DNA of 64,000 nt from a virus (lineage: Duplodnaviria; Caudoviricetes), in IMG/VR virus record IMGVR_UViG_3300013947_000026, positions 1 to 64,000 of that record; one strand, written 5' to 3'. Under the pieces are notes generated by a model that saw only the letters and a list, made by a program, of their open reading frames with translations, did not search any database and was not told where the DNA came from. The position numbers and the translations under genes were made by a program. Within the stretch, counting starts at the first letter, position 1; the number at the start of each line of letters is the position of its first letter. Shown here piece by piece: positions 4,698 to 59,153 of the stretch.

Positions 4698-6304
4698 CAC
4701 AGATAGAAAGTCCTAAGCGAAAGATGCAAAAGTAGAACGACTATCAGCGTCATAAGCTCTTTCGTAAGATTAAACGTAGAAGAAAGGCTCAAGCTGAAGC
4801 ATAGTAGGAAGTAGCCGAGAAGTAGTTGAAGAAGAAGTTGAAGTTACCAAAGTTTAACGATGGAGATGACTCAAGATTTGTATATCTTAGAGATATTGTT
4901 GGGCATGATCCGGAATCTGGCGAGGATATACTTAAAACCGGAGAACGCGTTAATAGACGCTTACCGACCGTTGAAGTTAATTAGAGAGATCTTTCTAAAA
5001 TTGATGCCGCAGAACGTAATTAGGAATTAAGAGATCTTAGACAATATATGGGTGATGACGCATTTAATGAATATATATCAAGCCTTTAGACAAAGAAAGA
5101 CATACAAAACGCCCAGTATTAGAAAACGTGGCAAGGTGAAGTAGCTGACGCCATAGATGGCGGAATGACAGCACTTGCTTTTAATCCAACAACACAGCCA
5201 GCTGCCGATGTGTATTTTGCACTAAGAGGAGCAAAGGAATTATCGGAAGGTGATCCGTATGGAGTTCTCGGTATGGTTCCAGTGATAGGAAAATCTTTGC
5301 CAGAAATAAAAAATGTTGCAAAATAGATATATTTTAGCAATAATCCTAACGCTTAGTATCTTAGATATATCGGAGGTAAATTCAAGTATGGATTTGATGC
5401 GAAAATCCCAGATTTGTATAGAAGGTATTTGACTTTGCCAGATATGAGAGGTAGATATACGATCTTATCTCCAATTGATAATAGGTTTGCATACAAAACT
5501 GGCGACGTTAGCCCACTTATAACAAATTTTACTACAGATTACCCTGTTCTTCCTAATAATGGTGGAGATTGGAGCTTAAGACCAATATTAAAGATTCCTG
5601 GGAATACGCTGCTTGGAAAAAATGTTATTTCAACTAGGCCGTCAGACACATTTGTATTCGGCGATAACATCAAGGTCCCAACGAGAAATATTTAGGTATT
5701 TGATAGAAATACAAGCTAGGAATTATACGAGGCGTTTTAGAATGCTAAAAAGAACGGAGAAAGCCGCAGAATTGGTAGATTCCTTTTTGATAAGCCAAGA
5801 GATTATGGCCGTGAATTTGAGCAGGCTTTATTGAAAGCTGCTACTAACGGCGATCGCCCAAGACTAAAAGATTATTAGTTTATGGATTATGTGCTAAGAC
5901 CAAAATATACATCTCAGGTACACGATGTAAATGTATTAAATTCAAAAAATCTTCCAGATGACATTTTGGACGCCATGAGCAACGCTTAGTCTAGAACACA
6001 ACTATTAGATGGTCATTATGAAAATGTTATTTACGATCCATCTTCGCCTGTAGAGTCTTAGTTTAGAAAAAGTTAGGGCATTGTTCTTCGTAGTAAAATC
6101 CCCGAAAATAAAAGAAATTTTAACTCTGGCAAGGATATCCGCATCAAACCATCTAAGCGTGGCACATTTACTAAGGCGGCAAAATCTCACGGTATGAGTG
6201 TACAAGGATTTGCTAATAAGGTTCTTAAAAATCCAAGTAAGTATAGTACTACTATGAGAAAGAAAGCTAATTTTGCACGTAATGCGTCGAGGTGGTCACA
6301 TTAA
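4694..6304 (+). CDS. Modular virion cargo protein with basic N-terminus, possible toxin/ART-like core and conserved crAss-type C-terminal domain
   Basis: Open frame in code 15, ending TAA 6302-6304. C-terminus IRIKPSKRGTFTKAAK..RKKANFARNASRW is a type of small basic domain I recognise from crAss-like phages. Confidence 0.7.
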
Positions 6305-6307
6305 ACA

Positions 6308-6332
6308 TTACTCGGGTTCGACTCCCGAGTAG
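6308..6332 (+). other. Isolated tRNA T-arm-like hairpin
   Basis: TACTCGGG-TTCGACT-CCCGAGTA: perfect 8-bp stem with a canonical T-loop; no rest of a tRNA found. Confidence 0.6.
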
Positions 6333-6378
6333 CGTACAATTAAATAGAAAATATTAACTTAGTTATAATATTATAATT

Positions 6379-7584
6379 ATGGCAAGAAGAAAGAAAAATC
6401 CATTAGGTGATTTTGAAGACGCTTTATCCTCTTTTGGATATGGTAGCCAGGAAGGTGGCGATAGCGTAACAAATATCGACAATCAGGATGTGATTGATCA
6501 GGTATTAGATGACCCTAATGATGATGTTGACAATTTAGATAATCCAGATGACGACAAGTCAACTGAGGATAAAGACAAAGACAATAAGAATGTAACTGGC
6601 GATCCACACGCACACGACGACGATTCGGATGTGCCAGATAATATTTTAAATAACACGTCTACAACAACCATTGATAACAACGAATAGGATAACGATGATG
6701 ACATTGACGACAACGTTGATGATTCTAACAATGATCATACAGCAGATCCTGGAGAGGCAGAACAAATTGGAGCCTTCTTTGACGCATTCGCTGAAGCAAA
6801 TGGTTGGTCTGTTGATGAAGATGACAAACCTAAATCAGTAGAAGATTTAGTAGACTATATTAAAGATGTAGTAGACGAGAATTCTACGCCACAATATGCT
6901 GATGATAGAATTGCTAAACTTGATTAGTATGTAAAGAATGGTGGCAGATTTGAAGACTTCTATCAAACTCAACAGAAATCTATGTCTCTTGATAATATTG
7001 ACATGGAAGACGAATCTAATTAGAAAGCAGTTGTTCGTGACTATTACAAATTGCAAGGTATGAGTGATGAACAAATTAGTCGCAAGATTGAGCGCTATGA
7101 AGATGCTGACATGCTCGAAGATGAAGCAACTGATGCTGTAAATTACCTTAAGGCGTATGAATAGCAACAGCAAGAGTACTTGGCTCAGCAACAGGAGGCT
7201 CAAAGACAAGCTCAAGAACAACAGGCTGCTCAGTTCATGGATGACCTTACAACAAGTATTAATAGTCTTACAAATATCAGAGGTATTGCTATTCCAAAGG
7301 AGGATAGAAAAGCCTTATATGATTACATAACTAGAACTGATGCAGATGGTTTAACACAATATCAAAAAGATTTTAATGGTAACCTTGTGAACAACCTTCT
7401 TGAGTCCGCTTACTTCACAATGAAAGGTGATGCTTTGCTGGGCGAAGCACAGCGCAATGGTCAGACATCTGCTGCAAGTAAACTTAGATAGATGCTCAAA
7501 CATCAAACTAAAAATCATACATCATATAATGTTGGGCATGAAAAACAACCTCAAGCATGGGATATCGCGTCAAAATACCTATGA
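6379..7584 (+). CDS. Acidic putative scaffolding/structural protein upstream of the major capsid gene
   Basis: Track ORFs 6379 and 7180 are in frame via TAG; TGA at 7582-7584. D/N-rich N-terminus, helical Q-rich C-terminus, and typical position. Confidence 0.7.
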
Positions 7585-56686: not shown

Positions 56687-56981
56687 AAGAAAACTTCTTA
56701 CCCCTTATCTTAGAGACAATATTTCCTTCAAAATAGACAATATCACCATCTGTTACTTTAGTAGAATCACCATGATGAACACATGCGCATATATTACCTT
56801 CATCACTATAACTATCCCAGATAGTCATATGCATTTTGTTTGGCAAATAAATACGCAAGAATCCACCCTTCTGTAAGGAGATTCGTTTAGTCAGCTTCTT
56901 TGCCAACCACTTGTGCAATAGAGGAGACATTACTGCACCTCCCAGCACACCAAGCAGGCATCCTATTACTACATCAATCAT
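56667..56981 (-). CDS. Hypothetical membrane-anchored protein
   Basis: Hydrophobic N-terminus VVIGCLLGVLGGAVM; overlaps both neighbours. Confidence 0.65.
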   Translation of the reverse strand: MIDVVIGCLLGVLGGAVMSPLLHKWLAKKLTKRISLQKGGFLRIYLPNKMHMTIWDSYSDEGNICACVHHGDSTKVTDGDIVYFEGNIVSKIRGKKFSYDRQEW

Positions 56982-57945
56982 ATTTCTGTAACGTTTTTGT
57001 TAACCAGTCTTTCATGGTGCTAAATCCGTTGTCACGAACAGCATCTGATAGATCTTTGGCTTTGAATTTCTTGTTAATGAAAAATGCATCTAATTTGTAC
57101 TGTTTGCTATACATCCTTGACTTATGAACACCCGTAATATCTCTATCGTATAATATAACAATATGTTTCCATTTTGAACGTAAAGATTTAAGTATATCAT
57201 CAGGAATGAATACTGTTTCGCTGGCTGCAGCTATAGCATTAAAACCCATTTCGTAACATACCATAACATCTTTCAATGATTTGGTTATTATGAGTAAATT
57301 GCCACCCTCTTTAGGTAATTCGGCTAATCCCTGTACATGCCTATTTGTCAGATTGGTACGCCATTTAGTATACTTAGAGGCAAGCGGCCGATAAATTTTA
57401 AATTTATCATACACTTTATATGCATACATAGGACTAGTTTCTTTATAGATACTTCGGACGATACTATTACAAAGAAAGTACTTAATGCTAAATACATTGA
57501 ATTTCTTCAATGTATCTATATGAATACCGAACTGTTTCCAGTATTGTTTATCTACATCTGTAAACGGTTGTCGAACTATCCCGATATCAGTTTCTCCTTT
57601 CGGTTTATCATACGTATTTGTCCTAACAGTTAAATTAGGATTTATTCTGCGTACAATTCTCAATAATTCTCGTTCTAATTCTTCTCTTGTCGTTATTCCT
57701 TTATATTCTTTTAGGAACTTTATTGCGTTTCCATAATCACCAGTTCCAAGATCTTTCCATAACAATCCGCCTGTTTTAGATTGGAATATTCCAAATGATG
57801 GATTCTTATCTCCAGATCTTAATGGGCTATTTATAAGTTTTCCAACTTTGAATTGCCCTAAACAATACGTATAGATGTCTAAATCAGTCAACTTGTCCAA
57901 TATGTCTCTTAACGAAACTGTTATTGCTGTCTTAGTACTATACAT
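56974..57945 (-). CDS. dnaG: DNA primase (crAss-type, TOPRIM)
   Basis: SPLRSGDKNPSF..WKDLG, IITKSLKDVM, LYDRD, KDLSD. Confidence 0.85.
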   Translation of the reverse strand: MYSTKTAITVSLRDILDKLTDLDIYTYCLGQFKVGKLINSPLRSGDKNPSFGIFQSKTGGLLWKDLGTGDYGNAIKFLKEYKGITTREELERELLRIVRRINPNLTVRTNTYDKPKGETDIGIVRQPFTDVDKQYWKQFGIHIDTLKKFNVFSIKYFLCNSIVRSIYKETSPMYAYKVYDKFKIYRPLASKYTKWRTNLTNRHVQGLAELPKEGGNLLIITKSLKDVMVCYEMGFNAIAAASETVFIPDDILKSLRSKWKHIVILYDRDITGVHKSRMYSKQYKLDAFFINKKFKAKDLSDAVRDNGFSTMKDWLTKTLQKYD

Positions 57946-57959
57946 AACTTATAAGTTAG

Positions 57960-58036
57960 AGTGAGAGGAAGGAGTCGGACCTTCGTATACATATAATGTA
58001 TAAAACTGCCAAGTGTTACTTTCAGACTTCTCTCAC
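57960..58036 (-). ncRNA. tRNA-like RNA with non-canonical D/anticodon region
   Basis: Acceptor GTGAGAG/CTCTCAC, T-arm GAAGG-TCCGACT-CCTTC, hairpin TATAC-ATTATAT-GTATA. Confidence 0.6.
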
Positions 58037-58044
58037 ATATAAAA

Positions 58045-58104
58045 GAGCAGTTTAATGACATGCTCAGGTCAAACGGGCAGACAGTTTACGGGCTTGTCTA
58101 GGCC
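58045..58104 (-). ncRNA. Two tandem H-type pseudoknots
   Basis: GGC-CT-AGACA-A-GCC-CGTAAAC-TGTCT and TGAC-CT-GAGCA-T-GTCA-TTAAAC-TGCTC. Confidence 0.6.
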
Positions 58105-58249
58105 GGGGACTTCATTTATACATCCCAGATCCAACTTAAGTATGGTTCACCATGAAATCTGATTGCTCTAAGTGAATAGAGCGTGTTACTAAGTGAGACC
58201 TATCCTCACGGACCGGAGTTTTCTACATATAAATGATAAACAAAAACAG

Positions 58250-58352
58250 TGGCTATGCTAGGAATCGAACCTAGCAGAATGGGAAAAATGTACGAAAATA
58301 ACAAAAGATAAAAACCATTCTTGTCTTATGCCTCACGACACCCTGACTAGCC
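58250..58352 (-). ncRNA. tRNA-like cloverleaf with a 32-nt U-rich loop
   Basis: GGCTA/TAGCC closing stem, GUGA-capped arm, AGAATGG/CCATTCT arm, T-arm GCTAGG-TTCGATT-CCTAGC. Confidence 0.65.
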
Positions 58353-58550
58353 TTGTTGGAGGCATTTCACCTCCAAAGGGTAACTGAATTACCTAGCTCC
58401 ACCAACGTCAGTTTATGGCGGTATTACCCTCCCTGACGTAACCACTTGTCATACAGTTTGACACTCCTGCTATGTAAATGATATAAAAACCATTTACCGG
58501 ATTTCATACAATCAAGTAGTATTTCTTTCTCTTTAGATGTATATTCTCCC

Positions 58551-59153
58551 TTAAAACGGAAGCTCTGATACACCTGAATTATTCCCAGTTTCCGGAGTAA
58601 TGGTTGGTGGTACCTTAAGCGGGTCGTTGTGCTCTACATCAGCTACAACTGGACGCTCCATAAGATCTTTCTTAAAGAGTTTAATCTGGGAATCTTTATT
58701 AGACATATCTTCAACGAAGATACCATAAGAACTTACACGAGTGTAACCTTTCTTATCGTAATTAACTTTCAAACGAAGTTTCTTCTTAGTAGCGATCATA
58801 GGATCAAGCATCTGCTTAACCCAATTAATCATTTCTTTAAATGTTTGCAGTTCTGCTTCTGGACGTTGTGGATAATAACAATCAATAATCTGGCATATAC
58901 GTCCAAACTGATTATTATCTGCTCGTTGTAAATCTTCATCAGTTTTAATATATTGACCTTTATTATTCTTCCACTCTGTCATAGTAGCAGTTTGACCTTG
59001 CTCGTTCTCAAATGTAATTTCAAGCTTATCAAAACCTTGTGGTGATACACTGCATATCACTTCCTTGAGAGTTACATTTTCGTTAATACCTACTGGCATA
59101 TAATTGCCAGAAAATTCTTCGTTATTTGTTACGGCTGTCTTTGTACTAAACAT
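58551..59153 (-). CDS. Putative single-stranded DNA-binding protein
   Basis: Beta-rich 200-aa protein ending ELPF; directly follows the Sak4-like ATPase. Confidence 0.7.
   Translation of the reverse strand: MFSTKTAVTNNEEFSGNYMPVGINENVTLKEVICSVSPQGFDKLEITFENEQGQTATMTEWKNNKGQYIKTDEDLQRADNNQFGRICQIIDCYYPQRPEAELQTFKEMINWVKQMLDPMIATKKKLRLKVNYDKKGYTRVSSYGIFVEDMSNKDSQIKLFKKDLMERPVVADVEHNDPLKVPPTITPETGNNSGVSELPF

What the first reader, a model, noticed from the sequence alone, without database searches (positions are those of the whole stretch)
57946..58550. 600-nt non-coding RNA island between ssb and primase
This is the largest ORF-free gap in the window and it is packed with structure on the - strand. 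In transcript order: a pseudoknot (58445-58405), a T-loop-like module GTTGG..GGAGG-TGAAATG-CCTCCAAC (58406-58355), a cloverleaf (58352-58250), a TCC-GTGA-GGA hairpin, two pseudoknots (58104-58045) and a second cloverleaf (58036-57960). It reads like a polycistronic array of small RNAs released by tRNA-processing nucleases. None is a canonical tRNA. This is my best candidate for an undescribed system: RNA decoys or regulators co-expressed with the replication genes (inference).
Basis: partly seen in the sequence, partly recalled or inferred. Interest (0 to 1): 0.85.

Follow-up and report, generated by a model that had tools for sequence, protein, structure and literature searches.

The report
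Structured tRNA-like RNA island in crAss-phage
Between the ssb and primase genes of a gut crAss-like phage lies about 480 nt of conserved, folded RNA (two tRNA-like cloverleaves, pseudoknots and hairpins) that matches no described RNA family and occupies a fast-changing slot where related phages carry ordinary tRNA genes.

Summary
The stretch is real. Once TAG is read as sense, as this phage does, it is the largest ORF-free gap in the window. It is not one 600-nt RNA.

The phage is crAss-like and TAG-recoded; its nearest relative is Burzaovirus. The first ~125 nt (58550-58424) hold a conserved 41-45-codon frame, +1 to ssb.

The other ~480 nt are sense-strand structured RNA:
- 58439-58357: a stem enclosing the upstream stop codon, an invariant 10-nt box and two hairpins.
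- 58352-58250: a tRNA-like cloverleaf. Acceptor, GNRA arm and canonical T arm covary across 27 relatives; the long arm does too, by eye.
- 58216-58106: several hairpins.
- 58104-58045: two tandem pseudoknots of identical grammar, one supported by covariation in both stems.
- 58036-57960: a second tRNA-like element in a hypervariable cassette slot. Relatives carry real tRNAs there (Val, Leu, Lys, Trp and others) or other odd tRNA-like units.

Nothing matches Rfam, ARAGORN, theta ribozymes, a promoter or a terminator.

Best reading: a co-transcribed, tRNA-derived array of processing signals and stable RNAs, cut by RNase P/Z. That mechanism is inferred, and expression could not be checked.

The parts
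58424..58573 (-). Small conserved reading frame in the +1 frame of ssb. It is 49 codons from a GTG at 58573, or 42 codons counted from the ssb stop at 58550. Its stop codon (58426-58424) lies in the loop of stem S1.
   Evidence: The frame is kept in 29 of 30 distinct relatives, and the indels are 3 nt long. Variable columns by codon position are 9/6/16. Synonymous against non-synonymous codon variants are 16:20, versus 11:26 and 7:27 in the other two frames. Only same-locus homologues of 48-55 aa are found. No start codon is conserved.
58399..58439 (-). Stem S1 (58439-58433 with 58411-58405), which encloses the upstream stop codon. A possible second stem (58421-58417 with 58403-58399) would make it a pseudoknot.
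   Evidence: S1 has four pairs with changes on both sides among the close relatives. An equivalent stem of unrelated sequence encloses the ssb stop in L065 and in the distant group. The second stem shows only a C/U change opposite an invariant G.
58379..58406 (-). Invariant box GTTGGTGGAG (58406-58397) followed by hairpin H1 (58393-58379).
   Evidence: The box is invariant in all 27 aligned relatives. H1 is 100% paired, with two compensatory pairs. A related box plus hairpin recurs once or twice in the same spacer of about 30 more distant phages. There is a single copy in this genome.
58357..58375 (-). Hairpin H2: a 6-bp stem with the invariant 7-nt loop TGAAATG.
   Evidence: 100% paired. Three pairs have changes on both sides, seen in L003 and L065.
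58250..58352 (-). tRNA-like element 1. It has a 5-bp acceptor-like stem, a GNRA-capped arm in the D position, a 7-bp arm with a 32-nt U-rich loop, a canonical T arm, then A and C.
   Evidence: This is the MFE fold, z -3.2. Acceptor, GNRA arm and T arm are 99-100% paired with compensatory changes. The long arm also covaries, but in a shifted register. The element is conserved in L065 and is reduced to acceptor plus T arm in L092. No tRNA or tmRNA model reaches significance.
58106..58216 (-). Four hairpins: a GNRA-capped hairpin (58216-58199), a hairpin at 58182-58165, a hairpin with a 9-nt loop (58148-58128) and a hairpin at 58126-58106. A conserved single-stranded run lies between them.
   Evidence: Stems differ in sequence between the two variants of this segment but stay complementary. 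RNAalifold finds compensatory pairs in the hairpin with the 9-nt loop. Support is weaker than for the other parts.
58079..58104 (-). H-type pseudoknot PK2: a 3-bp stem interleaved with a 5-bp stem, with a loop ending in TAAAC.
   Evidence: Three variants of the short stem and four of the long stem are seen, and all are fully complementary.
58045..58070 (-). H-type pseudoknot PK3, with the same grammar as PK2. It ends a few nt before the cassette slot.
   Evidence: It is invariant in 55 copies, so covariation cannot be tested. This grammar with G/C-rich stems occurs only at PK2 and PK3 in the genome; shuffled genomes give about 2 AT-rich chance hits.
57960..58036 (-). tRNA-like element 2. It has a perfect 7-bp acceptor, a 5-bp T stem with an imperfect T loop, an irregular D region, and a 7-bp/3-nt hairpin (alternatively 5-bp/7-nt, showing UAU) in the anticodon position.
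   Evidence: This is the MFE cloverleaf, z -2.5. The Rfam tRNA model gives 21 bits against a 29-bit cut-off and aligns only the acceptor and T arm. ARAGORN is negative. No relative is found. The position is the hypervariable cassette slot.
57946..57959 (-). Conserved leader of the primase gene. It includes a 12-nt perfect palindrome (57957-57946) that abuts the ATG at 57945.
   Evidence: It is identical or nearly so in all close relatives. A similar string also separates successive cassettes. Distant relatives have other palindromes at the same place.

Best explanation
The island is the local state of a hypervariable tRNA/tRNA-like cassette locus between ssb and primase in a group of TAG-recoded crAss-like phages.

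Inferred steps:
- It is transcribed with the replication genes on the minus strand.
- The RNA folds into modules kept by selection.
- The two tRNA-like elements keep only the part of a tRNA that RNase P, RNase Z and the CCA-adding enzyme recognise, namely the acceptor stem stacked on the T arm.
- Host tRNA-processing enzymes therefore cut the transcript at these elements, in the manner of 'tRNA punctuation'.

Predicted products:
- an ssb message ending in a structured 3' end (stop-codon stem, box, two hairpins);
- a cloverleaf RNA of about 100 nt with a U-rich loop;
- a hairpin/pseudoknot RNA of about 210 nt;
- a second tRNA-like RNA;
- a primase message with a 15-nt leader.

Shown: the structures, their conservation and covariation, the cassette behaviour, and the lack of any known family. 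Not shown: transcription, cleavage, and what the released RNAs do.
For: Identity and context:
- The phage is crAss-like. Its nearest relatives, Burzaovirus cr124_1 and cr7_1, have the same gene order.
- The ssb-primase spacer ranges from 67 to 2281 nt in 80 related loci.
- The spacer holds true tRNAs in many of them: Val, Leu, Gln, Lys, Trp, Thr, Asn, Pro.

Structure:
- 45 tested pairs are 89.6% paired, against about 42% when partners are slid. 22 pairs change on both sides, and 0 of 500 shuffles reach the observed values.
- PK2 covaries in both stems.
- G-U pairs fit only the sense strand.

tRNA top half:
- The T loop of element 1 is canonical.
- L092 keeps only the acceptor plus T arm.
- Element 2 has 12 perfect top-half pairs, while its D and anticodon parts are aberrant.
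- In relatives, structured modules end a few nt before a tRNA 5' end.

Co-transcription: there is no terminator-like site and no Bacteroides-type -7 box inside the island. The two sigma-70-like sites found are no more than in shuffles (mean 2.4).
Against:
- Element 1 has only a 5-bp acceptor stem followed by two mismatches, so its fitness as an RNase P/Z substrate is unproven.
- The box-plus-hairpin module can sit directly before primase with no tRNA-like unit (L069, L044). At least that module therefore has a role of its own.
- Element 2 is unique to this genome, so selection on it cannot be shown.
- The phage encodes no CCA-adding enzyme or RNA ligase of its own.
Confidence: 0.5

Rival explanations
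1. Cis-regulatory RNA of the flanking genes. The stem around the stop codon, together with the invariant box and hairpins, would control what happens when ribosomes finish ssb: message stability, coupling to downstream translation, or a +1 shift into the small frame. The last tRNA-like unit and the palindrome would control primase translation.
For: - In three lineages a stem of unrelated sequence encloses the stop codon of the upstream frame and is followed directly by the invariant box.
- The box module is the only part present in the shortest spacers (L069, 67 nt).
- It is single-copy in the genome.
- The small frame lacks a conserved start. It lies +1 of ssb behind a run of four T before TAA in all 30 variants.
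Against: - TTT-TAA is simply the commonest Phe-stop pair in this AT-rich genome and is also present where no extension exists.
- This does not explain the tRNA-like modules or the cassette turnover.
- The only fused protein found comes from one contig with an earlier shift, probably a mutation or an error.
Confidence: 0.2
2. Counter-defence decoys. The tRNA-like units would mimic the acceptor/T-arm half of tRNAs to soak up host tRNA-targeting nucleases or tRNA-binding toxins. The cassette slot would turn over quickly because of an arms race.
For: - Cassette content turns over extremely fast between near-identical phages, with canonical and aberrant units mixed.
- Selection keeps the top half while the anticodon parts are replaced.
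Against: - The best-known tRNA-directed defences cut anticodon loops (from my own knowledge), and these units lack such loops.
- No defence or anti-defence gene is linked to the locus.
- There is no direct evidence of any kind.
Confidence: 0.12
3. Unusual but working tRNAs. Element 2 would be a decoder with anticodon UAU (Ile, AUA) if its anticodon-position hairpin opens to a 5-bp stem with a 7-nt loop.
For: - The alternative fold has U33 and a purine at position 37 (read from the sequence).
- This genome has other aberrant tRNAs that must work, such as the CUA suppressor found only at low threshold.
- Yutin et al. (PMC7886860) note that suppressors can escape detection in crAss-like phages.
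Against: - The Rfam tRNA score is 21 bits, below the 29-bit cut-off, and aligns only the acceptor and T arm.
- The variable region is 1 nt, and the D region is irregular and lacks the usual conserved bases.
- The T loop departs from the consensus.
- The MFE fold closes the loop to 3 nt.
- Element 1 has no anticodon loop at all.
Confidence: 0.08
4. Decaying remnants of tRNA genes and spacer sequence with no function of their own, or a DNA-level element such as a replication origin, a primosome loading site or a recombination hot spot.
For: - The slot clearly gains and loses tRNA genes.
- A repeated linker flanks the cassettes and could drive recombination.
- The location between ssb and primase would suit an origin.
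Against: - Compensatory changes in many helices show selection on pairing.
- G-U pairs make the fold strand-specific, which argues for RNA.
- GC skew only follows the direction of transcription, turns at 53 kb and gives no origin signal here.
Confidence: 0.1

Closest known systems
Phage tRNA gene clusters with accompanying tRNA-like stable RNAs (phage T4 species 1 and 2 RNAs; recalled from memory, not tested)
   Same: - Small stable RNAs of unknown function sit among phage tRNA genes.
- They carry a tRNA-like acceptor/T-arm end and are matured by the tRNA-processing enzymes.
   Different: - Here the phage, host phylum and sequences are different.
- The units lie between replication genes.
- They are joined to pseudoknots and to a stop-codon-anchored module.
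- No processing data exist.
tRNA-like processing signals on longer transcripts (MALAT1-mascRNA; MHV68 TMER tRNA-miRNA units; mitochondrial tRNA punctuation)
   Same: A tRNA-shaped module inside a longer RNA recruits RNase P/Z. This defines the ends of its neighbours, and a structured element directly upstream protects the new 3' end.
   Different: - Those are eukaryotic or animal-virus systems.
- Here the resemblance is architectural only and cleavage is untested.
Theta (minimal HDV-like) ribozyme-tRNA units of gut phages (Kienbeck et al. 2024, PMC10879173)
   Same: - Small structured RNAs abut tRNA genes.
- The setting is TAG-recoded gut phages that infect Bacteroidota.
   Different: - The defining theta layout, as listed in their supplement, is absent.
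- Rfam's HDV-type families do not hit.
- The modules here lie upstream of the tRNA-like 5' ends, not at tRNA 3' ends.
Upstream pseudoknot domain plus tRNA-like structure in plant-virus 3' UTRs (TMV, TYMV)
   Same: Consecutive H-type pseudoknots are followed by a tRNA-like fold at the end of a coding region.
   Different: - Those are RNA-virus genome ends that are aminoacylated.
- Here the region is internal to a DNA-phage operon, and the Rfam plant-virus tRNA-like models do not match the window.
Highly expressed long non-coding RNAs of crAss-like phage phi14:2 (bioRxiv 10.1101/2020.03.07.982082)
   Same: - Intergenic regions of a crAss-like phage are transcribed early and strongly.
- Their function is unknown.
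   Different: - The locus and the phage lineage are different.
- No sequences or structures were described that could be compared.

Membership tests
tRNA (Rfam RF00005 / ARAGORN) | Detected by the standard models at their thresholds | tested here: not met
   ARAGORN finds no gene in the window. Element 2 scores 21 bits against a 29-bit cut-off. Element 1 gets no tRNA hit at E<=10.
tRNA (Rfam RF00005 / ARAGORN) | 7-bp acceptor stem stacked on a 5-bp T stem with the T-loop consensus | tested here: inconclusive
   Element 1 has a canonical T arm but only a 5-bp acceptor followed by two mismatches. Element 2 has 7 + 5 perfect pairs, but its T loop departs from the consensus at one position.
tRNA (Rfam RF00005 / ARAGORN) | D arm with conserved bases, and a 5-bp anticodon stem with a 7-nt loop | tested here: not met
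   Element 1 has a GNRA tetraloop arm and a 7-bp arm with a loop of 24-80 nt in different relatives. In element 2 the Rfam alignment collapses both arms.
tmRNA | tRNA-like domain made from the 5' and 3' ends, G3-U70, a tag reading frame and pseudoknots | tested here: not met
   Only a chance-level 9.6-bit match to a tmRNA model is found. The acceptor pairs are G-C, G-C, C-G. The genome's real (permuted) tmRNA is at 74087-74458.
Theta / HDV-like ribozymes | Nested double pseudoknot with the conserved core strings and the catalytic C in J4/2 | tested here: not met
   The layout in the authors' list was compared by eye with the island, and no fit was found. No Rfam HDV-type hit appears at E<=10. 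No descriptor search was run.
GOLLD / ROOL and other large phage-associated RNAs in Rfam | Match to the family covariance model | tested here: not met
   cmscan of the region against all 4227 families at E<=10 gives only three chance-level hits. The whole window gives none at gathering score.
H-type pseudoknot (structural class) | Two interleaved stems, both maintained by compensatory change | tested here: met
   PK2 has three variants of the 3-bp stem and four of the 5-bp stem, all fully complementary. PK3 has the same layout but is invariant. The second stem of the first knot is unproven.
RNase P / RNase Z substrate | Cleavage at the 5' end of the acceptor stem and after the discriminator base | not testable with these tools
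   Only the recognised shape (acceptor plus T arm) can be shown.

The most novel reading that the evidence does not exclude
The island would represent an undescribed class of phage RNA system. It would be a modular, rapidly exchanging array of tRNA 'top-half' mimics, joined to a stop-codon-anchored box/pseudoknot module. The host's tRNA-processing machinery would release the units, and the released RNAs would act in trans during the early phase of a code-switching crAss-like phage. They might act as decoys for tRNA-directed host factors, or as regulators of translation in a host that does not use Shine-Dalgarno pairing.
Probability: 0.2. Interest if true: 0.85.

Novelty: new variant of a known kind. 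Interest (0 to 1): 0.62.

Why it matters
- crAss-like phages are among the most abundant viruses of the human gut. Their RNA biology is almost unknown, and long non-coding RNAs were seen in one cultured member without explanation.
- This locus gives a concrete, covariation-backed set of RNA modules, with exact coordinates and about 30 natural variants, in which tRNA genes appear to have been turned into something else.
- If the units are cut out by RNase P/Z, this would be a bacterial-virus example of tRNA punctuation and of tRNA-derived non-coding RNAs.
- If they act as decoys or regulators, the hypervariable slot would be a new kind of arms-race locus.
- The work also shows that gene finders and tRNA finders miss features of these recoded genomes: the small frame, the aberrant tRNAs and the suppressor.

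Tried and rejected
Known RNA families and tRNA finders:
- Rfam found nothing at gathering score in the window and only chance-level hits at E<=10 on the region and on each cloverleaf.
- ARAGORN found no tRNA in the window at the default threshold. At low threshold it joins the 5' part of element 1 to the 3' part of element 2 as a 'tRNA-Lys with a 293-nt intron', which I regard as spurious.

Other identities considered:
- Theta/HDV-like ribozyme: the layout does not fit.
- Suppressor tRNA for the TAG code: rejected, because a CUA tRNA lies at 87430-87503.
- General promoter: the invariant box is single-copy in the genome, there is no Bacteroides -7 box in the island, and sigma-70-like sites are no more frequent than in shuffles.
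- Intrinsic terminator: none found.
- Replication origin: GC skew only follows the direction of transcription.
- Shine-Dalgarno-like reading of hairpin H2: rejected, because L003 and L065 change the string while keeping the pairing.

Searches that led nowhere:
- Wider occurrence of the box plus H2 loop in IMG/VR: all hits outside crAss-like phages are glycine-rich coding sequence, so they are chance.
- The element 2 pattern in IMG/VR: no match.
- An antisense target of the 32-nt U-rich loop in the phage genome: the longest complement is 13 nt, as in shuffles.
- A phage-encoded CCA-adding enzyme or RNA ligase: none.
- Pfam/PHROGs for the small frame: only a sub-threshold Myb/SANT-like hit, E 0.06.
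- Literature searches found no description of this locus.

Full report
**What the window is.**
- Genes around the finding lie on the minus strand: B-family DNA polymerase, helicase, a Sak4/RecA-like protein, a 200-aa SSB-like protein ending in ELPF (58551-59153), and primase (56974-57945).
- The DNA is closest to the crAss-like phages cr124_1 and cr7_1 (Burzaovirus, Suoliviridae), which have the same gene order.
- The genome held for this window is 102,882 bp.
- Reading TAG as sense raises the summed length of long ORFs (150 codons or more, stop to stop) from 18 kb to 68 kb, almost all on the plus strand. This is therefore a TAG-recoded phage whose replication block uses the standard code.
- ARAGORN on the whole genome finds a permuted tmRNA (74087-74458), tRNA-Lys and tRNA-Met. 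At low threshold it also finds a CUA tRNA at 87430-87503. The island is therefore not the suppressor.

- With TAG as sense, 57946-58423 is the largest stretch of the window without an ORF of 70 aa or more.
- ARAGORN finds no tRNA in the window.
- Rfam finds nothing at gathering score and only chance-level hits at E<=10.
- The whole spacer folds somewhat better than shuffles (z -2.5). The two cloverleaves are the MFE folds of their segments (z -3.2 and -2.5).
- The stronger test is comparative, as follows.

**Relatives.**
- A primase-based search of IMG/VR gave 80 loci.
- The ssb-primase spacer ranges from 67 to 2281 nt.
- In many loci it contains genuine tRNAs: Val-GAC, Leu-TAA, Gln-TTG, Lys, Trp, Thr, Asn, Pro.
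- About 30 close relatives share this window's spacer positions 15-226 (58536-58325) and 481-514 (58070-58037) at 85-100% identity.
- The middle of the spacer exists in two variants.
- The last ~90 nt, which hold the second cloverleaf, match nothing.

**The 5' end looks coding.**
- From the ssb stop to 58424 a frame, +1 relative to ssb, is open in 29 of 30 distinct relatives.
- Indels there are 3 nt long.
- Variable columns fall 9/6/16 on codon positions 1/2/3.
- Synonymous against non-synonymous codon variants are 16:20, versus 11:26 and 7:27 in the other two frames, which also contain stops.
- Database proteins of 48-55 aa from the same locus exist.
- Pfam gives only a sub-threshold Myb/SANT-like hit.
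- No start codon is conserved. The window, L014 and L022 lack the ATG that most relatives have.
- All variants have four T before the TAA of ssb. A +1 shift at the stop is therefore possible, but so is an ordinary small gene.
- The one fused protein found (234 aa) comes from a single contig with an earlier shift.

**The stop-codon module (58439-58357).**
- Stem S1 covaries within the close group.
- L065 and L099 have a stem of unrelated sequence at the same place. So do 12 of 29 contexts in the distant group.
- In every case the loop holds the stop codon of the upstream frame: the small frame here, ssb elsewhere.
- In every case the 3' strand is followed within one base by an invariant box.
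- A hairpin follows the box. Its stem changes freely but stays paired.
- In the close group and in L065 a second hairpin with an invariant 7-nt loop comes next.
- The box is single-copy in this genome. In the shortest spacers it is the only element (L069).
- A second stem that would make this a pseudoknot has only a C/U change opposite an invariant G. With a one-base linker it is sterically awkward, so I leave it open.

**tRNA-like element 1 (58352-58250).**
- I aligned 27 distinct sequences and tested eight helices.
- 89.6% of cells are paired, against 37-44% when partners are slid by 1-3 columns.
- 22 pairs change on both sides, against a shuffle mean of 9.9. No shuffle out of 500 reaches the observed values.
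- The acceptor-like stem, the GNRA arm and the T arm are 99-100% paired with compensatory changes.
- The long arm also covaries (four different complementary pairs of strands), but MAFFT set its register differently in the two variants, so its count is low.
- The loop of that arm varies from 24 to about 80 nt.
- In L092 the whole middle of the element is replaced by 13 nt, leaving acceptor plus T arm.
- The G-U pairs fit only the sense strand.
- No tRNA or tmRNA model is matched.

**The middle and the pseudoknots.**
- Between the cloverleaves lie several hairpins whose stems differ between the two variants yet remain complementary.
- At 58104-58079 a 3-bp stem and a 5-bp stem interleave.
- Across relatives there are three versions of the short stem and four of the long one, all perfectly complementary.
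- At 58070-58045 the same layout recurs, with the same loop ending, and is invariant.
- A genome-wide scan for this grammar finds G/C-rich examples only at these two places. Shuffled genomes give about two AT-rich chance hits.

**The cassette slot and element 2.**
- After the second knot, relatives carry from one to four units.
- These units include:
  - canonical tRNAs;
  - tRNAs with about 35 extra bases in the anticodon loop, which the Rfam tRNA model still recognises at 41 bits;
  - a mini tmRNA-like domain with G3-U70;
  - 55-nt minihelices.
- Units are separated by a repeated linker that also forms the primase leader.
- This window has a unit of its own at 58036-57960: 7 + 5 perfect top-half pairs with aberrant D and anticodon parts.
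- It scores 21 bits against the tRNA model's 29-bit cut-off and has no relative in IMG/VR.

**How it most likely works.**
- No terminator-like site and no Bacteroides-type -7 box lie inside the island. Two sigma-70-like sites are no more than shuffles give. I therefore infer read-through transcription from ssb to primase.
- The conserved feature of both cloverleaves, and of the minimal L092 form, is the tRNA top half. From established knowledge, that is what RNase P, RNase Z and the CCA-adding enzyme recognise.
- Structured modules end a few bases before these units, or before true tRNAs in relatives. After RNase P cleavage they would form protected 3' ends.
- I therefore favour a tRNA-punctuated array that yields an ssb message with a structured end, two tRNA-like RNAs, a hairpin/pseudoknot RNA of about 210 nt, and a short-leadered primase message.
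- Confidence is about 0.5, because every step after folding is inferred.
- The stop-codon module probably has a cis role of its own.
- Decoy, unusual-tRNA, remnant and DNA-level readings are listed as rivals.

**Comparison and novelty.**
- I found no paper describing this locus, and no Rfam family fits.
- The kind of thing is known: tRNA-derived, tRNA-like RNAs in a phage tRNA cluster, and tRNA-like processing signals.
- The modules and their combination are not known.
- I rate it a new variant of a known kind, with interest 0.62.

**Earlier notes of this scan.**
- Notes on the same genome had already flagged the pseudoknot grammar, both cloverleaves and a tmRNA.
- I tested the pseudoknot grammar and the tmRNA and confirm them. 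The two cloverleaves I tested only partly.

Noticed in passing
window 1-53800 (+ strand genes): The phage reads TAG as sense in its plus-strand (late) genes. The summed length of long ORFs rises from 18 kb to 68 kb, and one frame reaches 3956 codons. The minus-strand replication block uses the standard code.
   Followed up: partly
window 58424-58573 (-): A conserved 41-55-codon frame overlaps the ssb stop in the +1 frame. It has no conserved start codon, and four T precede the TAA. It is either a small gene or a +1 frameshift extension of SSB.
   Followed up: partly
genome 87273-87503 (+), outside the window: A cluster of three tRNAs: an aberrant one with an oversized anticodon loop, tRNA-Met, and a CUA (amber suppressor) tRNA with a non-canonical T loop. 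ARAGORN reports the suppressor only at low threshold.
   Followed up: partly
genome 74087-74458 (-), outside the window: ARAGORN calls a permuted (two-piece) tmRNA gene in the phage genome.
   Followed up: no
window 6290-6340 (+): A further canonical T arm followed by an acceptor-like strand lies about 40 nt upstream of the ATG at 6379. It may be another tRNA-like module in front of a gene.
   Followed up: no
genome 67792-69213 and T arm at 69342 (-), outside the window: Two more ORF-free stretches (795 and 405 nt with TAG as sense) lie in the same minus-strand block, with a canonical T-arm motif next to them. This may be a second structured-RNA island.
   Followed up: no
window 57946-57957 (-); L069, L033, L045 just before the primase ATG: A perfect 10-12-nt palindrome abuts the primase start codon. 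Its sequence differs between lineages, but it is always palindromic. It could be an operator or a start-site hairpin.
   Followed up: no
L005 2788-2891 and 2907-2989; L064 2353-2504: Relatives carry tRNAs with 35-80 extra bases in the anticodon loop, which the Rfam tRNA model still recognises. One unit is a mini tmRNA-like domain with G3-U70 and only 35 nt between its halves.
   Followed up: partly
L001-L029 cassette region: Successive tRNA/tRNA-like cassettes are separated by copies of the same ~12-nt linker that precedes primase. This could drive gain and loss of cassettes by recombination.
   Followed up: no
L031 2235-2260, L062 2245-2262, L045 2846-2866: Where the box module lies far from ssb, it is still preceded by a short copy of the last ssb codons. 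This suggests the ssb end plus module was duplicated as one unit.
   Followed up: no
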